Shown: piece after piece, positions 16,701 through 19,700 of the stretch | Numbering within the stretch: position 1 is the first letter of the stretch | Layout of the letters: each line of letters starts with the position of its first letter | Assembly: GCF_030013205.1 (NCBI RefSeq) | Contig: NZ_CP122648.1 | Strand: one strand, 5' to 3' | Source of the DNA: Escherichia coli | GTDB taxonomy: Bacteria; Pseudomonadota; Gammaproteobacteria; Enterobacterales; Enterobacteriaceae | DNA length: 64,000 bases | Made by a program: the position numbers

Positions 16701-19700
16701 CAGAACTAAATCACCCGTACGCAAATTACTGCGGGAAACAGATTTACCCATTTCCTGCTGTTCGTAAGTCGAACGCGGAAGTTCTAAGCCAAATTGCTCA
16801 CGGAATGTACGCTGTACGAAACCAGAACAATCGATACCTTTTTTAGTGCTGCCGCCCAGACGATAGCGTACGCCTTTCCAGTCAGCATACTGATCCATAA
16901 TTCGCGATTTTACGTCGACATTACGAACCAGGTTTTCAAATTCATCCTGAGAAGCTTGCAGTGATGATGTTTCACTACCCACTGCACGTGTCTCAGGATG
17001 CATATTCTTTGCGGTGTTATTTGCACTACATGCAGAAAGCAGAACCGCTACTGCAATCGCGGGGATCCCGCGCAAGATATATCTCAAAATCGGTTGAGAT
17101 TTGACCATGTTGTTTGTTTTCCCTTGAAGTCCTTAACGACAAATATCGTTATAAAAAAATGCCAAGCGACACGAGACTAATTACCTGGGCATGTTGAAAC
17201 AATTCCTTAAGGCCAAATCTGTGGACTAACGCACAAAATTATATGCTGTGAGAATAATCTACCGCCGAGGCAAAACGAGTTCGAGATTACCCGATTGGTG
17301 CGGTCTTGGCGAGCGGTTTTACATGATTTTTTATAAGAAAAAGTGATACAGAAAGTTAATAAACGGGATTGGTCAATTAAAGTACGATTGAGTGAAACGC
17401 ATGCAATCCATTCATTTACTTAGAGAATGATTTTTGCGCGCGATGGATGAAAGCACGGTGCGCATCATCAGGATTATCCTCACTATAAAAATAACCCTGA
17501 TGATGTTAATTACTGTGAGTTATTTGTTTTGGAAATGTTTGTTTTTTCCCGGTAGTGATTTGTCAAAAAAGGTGATTAATCGATCACTTAATGGCGTCAG
17601 CAACACCCAGGGCAAACCGATCAATATCACGGTCATCGAACCGACAATGATGTCAGTAAACCAGTGTGCGCCAATCATTACTCTGGGAAACGCAAAAACC
17701 ACAAAAATAATAAGGGCGATAAGGCCTGCAACTTTGCCGAAATAACGCCACATGAATGCCGAAAAAATAAGCAGCATCATGCCGTGATCGCCGGGAAAGC
17801 TATCTCGTGAGGCATCTTTCGTGGGAACAGAGAGCAGTTCGCTGACGCGGTTAATATTGGTAAAAGTCAATGTTGGGCTGGCCCGTTTTACAGGAATTAA
17901 TGCCTGACCCAGCTGGTTTAATACCACTGCAGTTAATAGCATGACCAGACCAATAATCACGATACGTCGTCTGCCAGGGGCGTTTTCTTTCAGCCAGAAA
18001 CTCAGCATCAACATTCCCATCGCCAGCAGAGAACAACCGTCGAAAGCGCGATTGTTGGTCAATGCAACCAGCCACAAAAAGGCCTTACTTTCGACCAGTT
18101 TCTGATTAAAGAAATAAAAAATATCCGCATCAATCGGCAACCAGAATCCATGATTAACGGGAATATACCAGGAAAGAAACAGCGCGAGGCCGACAATATT
18201 CAACAACACTATTTGCGGCAAATTTTTAATCATATTTTCTCTAATTATCTTACTGAAAAACGCAGGCAACCTTACGCGGTAGTCGCTAAACGAAGCTTCA
18301 ACAGCGCGCTCTGCAAGGCATTCCAGTCAGCTTCGCTGCTGGAAATCAGCTCAATACGGCTGTCCGGTGGCGCAATGTTTTGCGTTTCAATGTGCAGGTC
18401 ATCGCCCTGACGGTTGATTCGCACCAGCCCTTCGGGAATACGCAGCACGCCTTTGACGCGTTCTACCGATGCAAGTCGCGCCCATTCCAGAATGCCAATG
18501 GTGTCGAATACCGTATCAGCGTCGAATATCCAGCCGCAGGCCTGATATCCTTGCCCGCTGTTCAGACTGCGACGCCAGCGTTGATGCTCTGGCAGGCTTA
18601 ACGCTGCTAACCCTTTTTTCACGCTATGATGATGAGAATGTGCGGCGCTGGCGGGCAACTCGGCTAAATTGCGACGCGGCAAATCCAGAAGATGACCGTC
18701 AATTTTCCCATGCTCGCTGTGAATTAATTGCCGATCGCCACCATTTTGCTGCCACCAGCGCTGTAGCGCTTGCTCACTTTCGGGCGTCGCACGGTCGGAT
18801 TTATTGGCGACAATAATGTCTGCGGCAGCCAGCTGGTCACGGAAGTTTTCATTGCTGGCGCTTTTTTCGTCCAGCAGCAGGCGTGGATCGAGAATGCACA
18901 ACGTGGCGCGCAGATCTATCCACGGTTCATACACGGGCGCGGTTAAGAGATCTAGGATCTGTTTCGGATGACCCAGTCCGGTCGGCTCTATCAACAAGCG
19001 GTCTGGTTTTCCCTGACGCAGTAAGGTATTCAACCCTACCTGCATGGGTAAACCATTAACGCAGCACATGCAGCCGCCGGGGATCTCTTTCAGCAATGCG
19101 CCGCTATCGGCGAGCAAAGCACCATCAATTCCGACTTCCCCAAATTCATTAACCAGTACCGCCCATTTTTCGTTGGGATCTTTATGGGCTAAAAGATGAA
19201 GAATCGACGTAGTTTTCCCGCTGCCGAGAAAACCGGTGATGAGGTTGGTCCTGGTCACAACGGCTCCGCAATACTCTTAAAAGTTAACTGAGCGTTAATC
19301 CTGGCTAAAAAAGGCAGAAAAGAGAAGGGGGGAGCGGACGAAGGCGAGCTTCATCCGCTTTAACCGCAGAAATCGTTAAATTTTGAGGGTGTTTAATAGC
19401 GCCTGATGCGCGCCGAATTGTGCGATTTGTTGCCAGGCTTGTTCGATAGCCTGCACAAAATGCGGGTTATCTGGCAGATCATCACCGAAAACTTCACGCA
19501 GGGAAAGCAGGGCGGTTACGCGTTGTTCACTGCTACTGCCCGCAACAAGTTCGCGAATTTTATCGCTAAGCGGATCGCGAACATCAATGGCATTTCCGGC
19601 ATCATCAACGCCGCTGACGTAACGCATCCAGCCTGCAACGCCTAATGCCAGCAACGACCAGTCCGTTTCGCGCCCCAGATGTATGCGAATACCTGCCAGC

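What the first reader, a model, noticed from the sequence alone, without database searches (positions are those of the whole stretch)
17464..17505. Long inverted repeat immediately downstream of lpxT
A 14-bp-arm inverted repeat lies 15 bp past the lpxT stop in the 411-bp lpxT-mepS spacer, with no flanking T-tract. It may be an RNA-stability or processing hairpin at the lpxT 3' end, or a protein-binding palindrome in the mepS upstream region.
Basis: seen in the sequence. Interest (0 to 1): 0.15.

Follow-up and report, generated by a model that had tools for sequence, protein, structure and literature searches.

The report
Hairpin capping the lpxT mRNA end
The inverted repeat is real and most likely forms an RNA hairpin that marks and protects the 3' end of the E. 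coli lpxT messenger RNA, an ordinary and already described kind of feature that had simply not been annotated at this gene.

Summary
Two 15-nt arms (17463-17477 and 17491-17505) flank a 13-nt loop, 14 nt past the lpxT stop, in E. coli. lpxT and mepS both lie on the minus strand. Repeats this long are about 70 times commoner in the window than in shuffles.

As sense-strand RNA the one imperfect position is a G.U wobble, so all 15 pairs form.

Published Term-seq data (Adams et al. 2021) place an RNA 3' end 3 nt past the stem base. This is K-12 2269627, window 17460.

A hairpin sits at the same position in 75 of 80 Enterobacteriaceae species. It is kept by compensatory changes: 14 of 15 pairs change on both sides, and 0 of 500 shuffles match. 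In 16 species it carries a T-run, as a canonical intrinsic terminator does. E. coli has none.

Best reading: this is the lpxT mRNA 3'-terminal stem-loop, a terminator-type hairpin without a U-tract. It most likely sets the steady-state 3' end by blocking 3'-5' exonucleases, the class described by Dar and Sorek in 2018. Whether Rho, read-through or cleavage makes the primary end is not shown.

The protein-binding palindrome reading is disfavoured. Interest is low.

The parts
17491..17505 (-). 5' arm of the RNA hairpin (sense strand CAUCAUCAGGGUUAU)
   Evidence: Inverted repeat I1. Paired in the minimum-energy and centroid folds.
17478..17490 (-). Loop: 13 nt between the strict arms. RNAfold adds 5 weak inner pairs (3 of them G.U), leaving a 3-nt loop.
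   Evidence: This part differs among Escherichia species.
17463..17477 (-). 3' arm of the RNA hairpin (sense strand AUAAUCCUGAUGAUG)
   Evidence: One strain carries an IS1 inserted inside this arm.
17460..17460 (-). Published Term-seq RNA 3' end (K-12 2269627, + strand), 3 nt past the last paired base
   Evidence: Adams et al. 2021, Supplementary file 1, sheet LB OD 0.4, mean 1323 reads. Coordinate mapping was checked on the K-12 sequence.
17506..17519 (-). 14-nt single-stranded linker between the lpxT stop codon and the stem. It contains AATTAAC, which is conserved in many genera.
17520..18233 (-). lpxT coding sequence, whose transcript the hairpin ends
   Evidence: ORF list. RefSeq annotation of an identical E. 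coli record.
17302..17405 (-). C-rich, G-poor untranslated stretch 60-160 nt downstream of the hairpin. Candidate Rho loading region (inferred only).
   Evidence: 78-nt windows hold 17-19 C against 5-7 G, a C/G ratio of 2.4-3.4.

Best explanation
The inverted repeat is transcribed as the last part of the lpxT mRNA (minus strand). It folds into a 15-pair stem-loop 14 nt after the stop codon. This is the lpxT 3'-terminal stem-loop: a terminator-type hairpin that in Escherichia lacks the U-tract.

Shown:
- The hairpin exists.
- Its pairing is under selection across Enterobacteriaceae.
- It sits where other genera have a canonical intrinsic terminator.
- In E. coli K-12 a steady-state RNA 3' end maps 3 nt past its base.

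Inferred:
- The primary transcript ends or is cut further downstream, by Rho on the untranslated C-rich spacer or by endonuclease cleavage of read-through RNA.
- 3'-5' exonucleases (PNPase, RNase II) then trim back until the stem stops them. This fixes the mature 3' end and protects lpxT mRNA from decay.
For: Structure: the repeat is far beyond chance. On the sense strand its single imperfect position is a G.U wobble. The hairpin alone folds at -23.7 kcal/mol as sense RNA and -14.2 as antisense RNA.

Transcript end: a Term-seq 3' end lies at K-12 2269627, stem + 3 nt. That is too close to the stem and too poor in U for a classical intrinsic release site.

Conservation:
- The lpxT-hairpin-mepS arrangement is kept in 80 species, with a spacer of about 410-420 nt in most.
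- A stem of at least 8 pairs occurs at the orthologous place in 75 of 80 species.
- By a separate, stricter test on each 80-nt window (at least 9 pairs and score at least 20), 88% of the hairpin windows hold a strong stem. Control windows of the same loci give 2-39%.
- 14 of 15 pairs show changes on both sides, 0 of 500 shuffles reach the observed values, and slid controls are far lower.
- RNAalifold independently finds the core helix.
- Sense RNA is the more stable strand in 43 unique orthologous hairpins and antisense in 11.

Terminator homology: 16 of the 75 hairpins are followed by at least 5 T in 8 nt. Examples are Kluyvera L058, L059 and L061 and Cedecea L082. Klebsiella L069 and Siccibacter L065 also have a T-run, though part of it lies within the called stem. 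These are canonical terminators at the same site.

Known class: Dar and Sorek 2018 (PMC6061677) showed that E. coli Rho-dependent transcripts end just after stable stem-loops without U-tracts, which protect against PNPase and RNase II. They also predicted switching between the two terminator types by gain or loss of U's.

Downstream sequence: C/G is 2.4-3.4 at 60-160 nt past the hairpin.

Transcription units: SMRT-Cappable-seq lists yeiR-lpxT and lpxT units, and mepS units starting at 2269810 and 2269919, but no lpxT-mepS unit. Dar and Sorek's operon list ends at lpxT.
Against: - The 3' end appears in only one of three growth conditions and with a low read count of 1323.
- No Rho-dependent region is listed near it in Adams et al. 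Supplementary file 2, so Rho dependence is not shown. lpxT is weakly expressed, which limits power.
- No exonuclease-mutant data could be consulted.
- One E. coli strain tolerates an IS1 inside the 3' arm, so the hairpin is dispensable for viability.
- The G.U versus A.C count across species favours the sense strand only weakly: 26 against 16, p = 0.16.
Confidence: 0.72

Rival explanations
1. The hairpin is itself a weak, non-canonical intrinsic terminator. RNA polymerase stops at it without a U-tract, and the +3 end is the release site or a slightly trimmed one.
For: It occupies the position of canonical terminators in other genera. It is a stable stem right after a stop codon. No Rho-dependent region is listed here, and no lpxT-mepS read-through unit is listed.
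Against: There is only 1 T in the 8 nt after the stem. The consensus terminator scan did not call it, although it called the mepS terminator. Only 5 of the 15 stem pairs are G-C. The 3' end at +3 nt is nearer the stem than the usual 7-9 nt release point of intrinsic terminators (established knowledge; for the definition).
Confidence: 0.13
2. It is a functionless relic in Escherichia: an ancestral terminator that lost its U-tract and persists by inertia. The Term-seq end is then an incidental exonuclease stall.
For: An IS1 insertion in the arm is tolerated. One stem position is hypervariable in E. coli, carrying G, T or C. The read count is low and seen in one condition only.
Against: The outer 10 pairs are invariant across Escherichia species, while the loop and the 3' flank diverge. 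Compensatory changes across many genera imply continuing selection for pairing. An exonuclease stall at a stem is itself the protective function.
Confidence: 0.08
3. It is a DNA palindrome bound by a dimeric regulator that acts on mepS or lpxT.
For: It is a long palindrome in an intergenic region upstream of mepS. The core CAGGGATCG-N4-CGATCCCTG recurs in many genera.
Against: - Half-site spacing varies from 3 to 14 nt.
- Stems in Salmonella, Klebsiella, Kluyvera, Siccibacter and Cedecea share no sequence with E. coli yet still pair.
- Changes are compensatory rather than base-preserving.
- The imperfections in E. coli are G.U on the sense strand.
- The site lies 186-228 nt upstream of mepS P2.
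Confidence: 0.04
4. It hides a sigma-70 promoter (TTAACA, 16 nt, TATAGT, on the minus strand at 17509-17482) that drives a third, long mepS transcript.
For: The consensus scan gives a 10-of-12 match.
Against: - It is the only match in 2 kb, where shuffles give 4.2.
- The -10 hexamer lies in the loop and is not conserved even within Escherichia: CATAGA, CATAAT and CCCATT replace it.
- SMRT-Cappable-seq lists mepS starts only at 2269810 and 2269919.
Confidence: 0.03

Closest known systems
Protective 3' stem-loops at steady-state ends of Rho-dependent E. coli transcripts (Dar and Sorek 2018, NAR 46:6797, PMC6061677)
   Same: A stable stem-loop just after the coding region, with no U-tract. A mapped RNA 3' end lies immediately downstream of the stem. 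C exceeds G further downstream.
   Different: Rho dependence and trimming by PNPase or RNase II are not demonstrated for lpxT. The stem is AU-rich, with 5 G-C pairs of 15.
Canonical intrinsic (Rho-independent) terminators
   Same: Same position and same type of hairpin. Orthologous sites in Kluyvera, Atlantibacter, Cedecea and others (16 species by the test used) are canonical terminators with T-runs, and Klebsiella and Siccibacter also carry one.
   Different: The E. coli copy has no U-tract and no A-tract, and the mapped end is 3 nt rather than about 7-9 nt past the stem.
REP/BIME extragenic palindromes
   Same: An intergenic palindrome that, when transcribed, can stall exonucleases.
   Different: Single copy. 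It has no REP consensus. It is found once per genome in 5406 E. coli genomes and nowhere else in the window.

Membership tests
Intrinsic (Rho-independent) terminator | Stable stem-loop directly downstream of the gene | tested here: met
   15-pair stem; the hairpin alone folds at -23.7 kcal/mol. However, only 5 pairs are G-C.
Intrinsic (Rho-independent) terminator | U-rich tract of about 7-8 nt immediately 3' of the stem | tested here: not met
   The following bases are CGCACCGT, 1 T in 8. The consensus terminator scan did not call it.
Intrinsic (Rho-independent) terminator | RNA 3' end inside the U-tract, about 7-9 nt after the stem | tested here: not met
   The published 3' end is 3 nt after the stem.
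U-less protective 3' stem-loop (Dar and Sorek class) | Energetically stable stem-loop not followed by a U-rich sequence | tested here: met
U-less protective 3' stem-loop (Dar and Sorek class) | Precise steady-state RNA 3' end immediately downstream of the stem | tested here: met
   Term-seq end at K-12 2269627, from published data, in one of three conditions.
U-less protective 3' stem-loop (Dar and Sorek class) | Read-through when Rho is inhibited (bicyclomycin) | tested here: inconclusive
   Adams et al. Supplementary file 2 lists no Rho region at 22695xx-22700xx. lpxT is weakly expressed, and the raw data were not available.
U-less protective 3' stem-loop (Dar and Sorek class) | Longer 3' tails in pnp or rnb exonuclease mutants | not testable with these tools
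   The supplementary tables of PMC6061677 are not held.
U-less protective 3' stem-loop (Dar and Sorek class) | C-over-G enrichment downstream (candidate rut) | tested here: met
   C/G is 2.4-3.4 in 78-nt windows at 17405-17302. This is suggestive only.
REP/BIME repeats | Many dispersed copies per genome sharing a consensus | tested here: not met
   The arm matches only itself in the window. The covariance model finds no second copy. The median is 1 place per E. coli genome.
Transcription-factor operator palindrome | Conserved half-site bases at fixed spacing | tested here: not met
   Loops range from 3 to 14 nt, stems in several genera are unrelated in sequence, and changes are compensatory.
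Any Rfam RNA family | Match at or near the gathering score | tested here: not met
   Only chance-level matches (E >= 0.16, scores far below gathering) over 16900-17800.

The most novel reading that the evidence does not exclude
The widely conserved core CAGGGATCG-N4-CGATCCCTG carries two GATC Dam sites in most genera, though not in Escherichia. It might be more than a passive 3' cap. For example, it could be a protein- or methylation-sensitive insulator that sets how much lpxT transcription reaches the essential-pathway gene mepS. More modestly, the locus may be a clean natural series showing one terminator switching between intrinsic and U-less (Rho or processing dependent) forms across a bacterial family.
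Probability: 0.07. Interest if true: 0.4.

Novelty: new member of a known kind. Interest (0 to 1): 0.12.

Why it matters
It gives lpxT a defined 3' boundary. The Term-seq end listed as "orphan" in a published table can now be assigned to lpxT. It also separates the lpxT unit from the well-studied mepS promoters. The comparison across species offers a tidy example of an idea raised by Dar and Sorek: that terminators change type simply by gaining or losing the U-tract. None of this changes current understanding, so the finding is ordinary.

Tried and rejected
- Rfam scan of 16900-17800 at a permissive threshold: only chance hits.
- Repeat-family idea (REP or MITE): rejected. The arm and the covariance model R1 find no other copy in the window, and there is one place per E. 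coli genome.
- Promoter inside the hairpin: a 10-of-12 consensus match, rejected. The -10 is not conserved within Escherichia, and no start site is listed there.
- Operator palindrome: rejected on variable spacing and compensatory changes.
- A second, independent 3'-end data set: the supplements of PMC6061677 and PMC8848933 are not held. The TERMITe supplements do not contain the site. PMC4288677 is not held.
- Strand test by counting G.U against A.C mismatches: 26 against 16, not significant.
- MAFFT alignment A1 misplaces the 3' arms of the four Escherichia rows because their loop is longer. Pair counts therefore understate pairing for those rows. R1, built from A1, aligned the window copy in a shifted register.
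- The other three long inverted repeats near K-12-mapped positions have no Term-seq end in Adams et al..

Full report
**Locus and orientation**

The window is E. coli. The 431-bp query spanning the 411-nt lpxT-mepS spacer matches 5425 of 5426 complete E. coli genomes, always on the chromosome, at 95-100% identity.

All four genes here lie on the minus strand:
- yeiR, 18272-19258
- lpxT, 17520-18233
- mepS, 16542-17108
- pdeN, 14805-16361

Window and K-12 MG1655 coordinates convert as K-12 = 2287087 minus window. This follows from lpxT at 2268854-2269567 and mepS at 2269979-2270545. I checked the conversion base by base on the K-12 sequence.

**The observation**

The inverted repeat has arms at 17463-17477 and 17491-17505. 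They are 15 nt long with one non-Watson-Crick position, and 13 nt lie between them. The repeat starts 14 nt after the lpxT stop codon, inside a 411-nt spacer.

It is not a chance feature:
- The window holds 5 repeats of this quality, against a mean of 0.07 in 30 dinucleotide shuffles.
- The arm occurs nowhere else in the window.
- The sense-strand RNA context folds at -25.8 kcal/mol, z = -4.6.

On the sense (minus) strand the imperfect position is a G.U wobble, so all 15 pairs form in RNA. On the other strand it is an A.C mismatch. The hairpin alone folds at -23.7 kcal/mol as sense RNA and -14.2 as antisense RNA. The 8 nt after the stem are CGCACCGT, so there is no U-tract. The consensus terminator scan did not call this hairpin, although it called the mepS terminator at 16496-16471.

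**Experimental evidence from the literature**

- Adams et al. 2021 (eLife 10:e62438, PMC7815308), Supplementary file 1, sheet LB OD600 0.4, lists a Term-seq 3' end at 2269627 on the + strand. The mean is 1323 reads and the class is "orphan". The flanking sequence is ATTAACATCATCAGGGTTATTTTTATAGTGAGGATAATCCTGATGATGCG[C]ACCGTGCTTT. That is window 17460, 3 nt past the last paired base.
- The "orphan" label probably arises because the end lies 60 nt past the annotated stop. That is my inference, not the authors' statement.
- The end is not listed for LB OD 2.0 or for M63 medium. Supplementary file 2 has no Rho-dependent region at 22695xx-22700xx.
- SMRT-Cappable-seq (Yan et al. 2018, PMC6131387) lists units for yeiR-lpxT (start 2267795) and lpxT alone (start 2268825). 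It lists mepS starts at 2269810 and 2269919, with the unit from 2269810 ending at 2270620. It lists no unit joining lpxT to mepS and no start inside the hairpin.
- The two mepS starts agree with promoters P2 and P1 of Elgrably-Weiss et al. 2024 (PMC10798246). The hairpin therefore lies 186-228 nt upstream of the distal mepS start (window 17277).
- Dar and Sorek's operon list also ends the unit at lpxT. Herrera et al. 2010 found lpxT transcribed independently of yeiR.

**Comparative evidence**

A scan with MepS recovered 80 loci, one per species, covering more than 25 genera of Enterobacteriaceae. lpxT lies upstream of mepS in 79 of them by tblastn. The spacer is about 410-420 nt in most.

A stem of at least 8 pairs occupies the orthologous position in 75 of 80 species. 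A separate, stricter test asked for at least 9 pairs and a score of at least 20 in each 80-nt window. By that test 88% of the hairpin windows hold a strong stem, against 2-39% of six control windows in the same loci.

The stems differ in sequence:
- Escherichia: CAUCAUCAGGGUUAU / AUAAUCCUGAUGAUG
- Most Citrobacter: CAUCAUCAGGGA / UCCCUGAUGAUG
- Enterobacter, Kosakonia, Phytobacter, Franconibacter and others: AUCAGGGAUCG-UUUU-CGAUCCCUGAU
- Salmonella arizonae, Klebsiella, Kluyvera, Siccibacter, Atlantibacter, Buttiauxella and Cedecea: unrelated sequences

On a 61-sequence alignment of the alignable family, the pair counts show:
- 14 of 15 pairs change on both sides.
- 79.7% of cells are paired, against 69.6% in shuffles.
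- The covariation score is 0.294, against 0.143 in shuffles, and 0 of 500 shuffles reach the observed values.
- Controls with the 3' partner slid by 1-3 columns fall to 28-50% paired.

RNAalifold independently predicts the core helix, and all 8 of its pairs show compensatory changes. Examples:
- CAGGG/CCCUG becomes UAGGG/CCCUA in Kosakonia.
- It becomes CAAGG/CCUUG in Yokenella.
- It becomes CGGGG/CCCCG in L071 and L075.
- It becomes GAGGG/CCCUC in Leclercia L042.

Sense RNA is more stable than antisense RNA in 43 unique hairpins and less stable in 11. These sequences are related, so that comparison is indicative only. The direct G.U versus A.C count is 26 against 16, which is not significant.

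**Link to terminators**

In 16 of the 75 hairpins, at least 5 of the 8 bases after the stem are T. Several also have an upstream A-run. Examples:
- Kluyvera georgiana L058: AAAAAGAGGGC-aaac-GCCCTCTTTTT ATTTTTT
- L062: CATTCAGAGGGT-tatt-GCCCTCTGAATG TTTTTTTT
- Cedecea L082: GCAGGGAGC-gacagg-GCTCCCTGC GTTTTTT

Klebsiella pneumoniae L069 and Siccibacter L065 also carry a T-run, but part of it falls inside the called stem, so the 8-nt test does not score them.

These are canonical intrinsic terminators at the same site. The Escherichia, Citrobacter and most Enterobacter copies lack the T-run. This matches the suggestion in Dar and Sorek 2018 (PMC6061677) that the two kinds of 3' structure interconvert by changing U content. 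That the T-run form is ancestral is my inference from its presence in the more distant genera. No tree was built.

**Variation within Escherichia**

The outer ten pairs (CAUCAUCAGG / CCUGAUGAUG) are constant in E. coli, E. albertii and one of the two further Escherichia lineages. The other lineage (L003) has a single C-to-U change that turns one C-G pair into a U.G wobble. The inner stem, the loop and the 3' flank vary.

Within E. coli the only variable stem position is the eleventh base of the 5' arm. It is G in the window and K-12, T or C in other strains, and A in E. albertii, where it gives a perfect pair. The 40 nt after the stem carry six variable sites in the same seven sequences.

One strain (20A24) has an IS1 inserted inside the 3' arm, so the hairpin is dispensable.

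**Mechanism**

The data fit the class described by Dar and Sorek. In that class, steady-state 3' ends of E. coli transcripts that are not intrinsically terminated lie immediately after stable, U-less stem-loops. Those stem-loops stop PNPase and RNase II.

For lpxT, three things are shown: the stem-loop, the lack of U's, and the mapped end at +3.

What makes the primary end is inferred. The spacer is untranslated. From 60 to 160 nt past the hairpin it is C-rich and G-poor, with C/G of 2.4-3.4, which is the usual signature of a Rho loading site. However, no bicyclomycin-sensitive region is listed there. Rho termination, weak termination at the hairpin itself, and cleavage of read-through RNA all remain possible.

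**Rejected readings**

- A regulator-binding palindrome is unlikely. Arm spacing varies from 3 to 14 nt, several genera have unrelated stem sequences, changes are compensatory, and the site is far upstream of the mepS promoters.
- The sigma-70-like match inside the hairpin is not conserved even among Escherichia and has no listed start site.
- It is not a dispersed repeat.
- It matches no Rfam family.

**Verdict**

The feature is real and conserved, and most likely acts as the 3' cap of the lpxT mRNA. It is an unannotated instance of a known kind, so interest is low. The main open point is whether Rho, the hairpin itself or an endonuclease creates the primary end.

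Noticed in passing
window 17109-17519 and loci L003-L082, positions about 2085-2500: The lpxT-mepS spacer keeps nearly the same length (about 410-420 nt) in most of the more than 25 genera sampled. 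It has near-invariant blocks at 17349-17329 (CTTTTTCTTATAAAAAA, just upstream of the mepS P2 start at 17277) and over most of 17240-17109 (P1 and the 5' UTR). The least conserved stretch is 17468-17449, right after the hairpin.
   Followed up: partly
window 17506-17519: The motif AATTAAC, between the lpxT stop codon and the stem, is conserved in Escherichia, Citrobacter, Enterobacter, Salmonella and others. In some Citrobacter it extends the stem (TTAACATCATCAGG...CCTGATGATGTTAA). Its role is unknown; it may be a single-stranded AU-rich nuclease or protein site.
   Followed up: no
L088 (E. coli strain 20A24, NZ_CP147044.1): An IS1A element is inserted inside the 3' arm of the hairpin, after ATAATC. 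This destroys the stem in that strain.
   Followed up: partly
loci L033, L039, L044, L057, L070: In Phytobacter, Leclercia, Pluralibacter and related genomes the lpxT reading frame runs on through the hairpin. It stops at a TGA inside or at the end of the 3' arm (CCTGATGA).
   Followed up: no
loci L007, L008, L034, L054 and many others, about 2107-2134: The common non-Escherichia stem (GGGATCG-TTTT-CGATCCC) carries two GATC Dam methylation sites 4-6 nt apart. Escherichia has none at this place.
   Followed up: no
window 17112-17114, 16951 and 16467: Adams et al. Term-seq lists 3' ends 4-6 nt upstream of the mepS ATG (K-12 2269973/2269975, all three conditions). It also lists ends inside mepS (2270136 and 2270081) and at the mepS terminator (2270620, matching the predicted terminator at 16496-16471).
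   Followed up: partly
window 981-1017: A second AU-rich 15-nt-arm inverted repeat (TTTCGCTAACTGATT tataatt AATCAGTTAGCGATA). It overlaps the stop (1005) of the 586-aa minus-strand ORF and lies just upstream of tRNA-Pro(GGG) at 854-930. No Term-seq end is listed there in Adams et al.
   Followed up: partly
window 660-733: A cluster of TAGCTA-containing short repeats, including a 14-nt-arm inverted repeat at 692-733, lies downstream of the tRNA-Pro gene.
   Followed up: no
window 27378-27410 and 51078-51119: Two more long inverted repeats. One (TGTTACAGGGCAGAA att TCCTGCCCTGTAACA) lies just after the 563-aa ORF that ends at 27368. The other is REP-like (GCGTCGCATCCGGCA ... TGCCGGATGCGTCGC).
   Followed up: no
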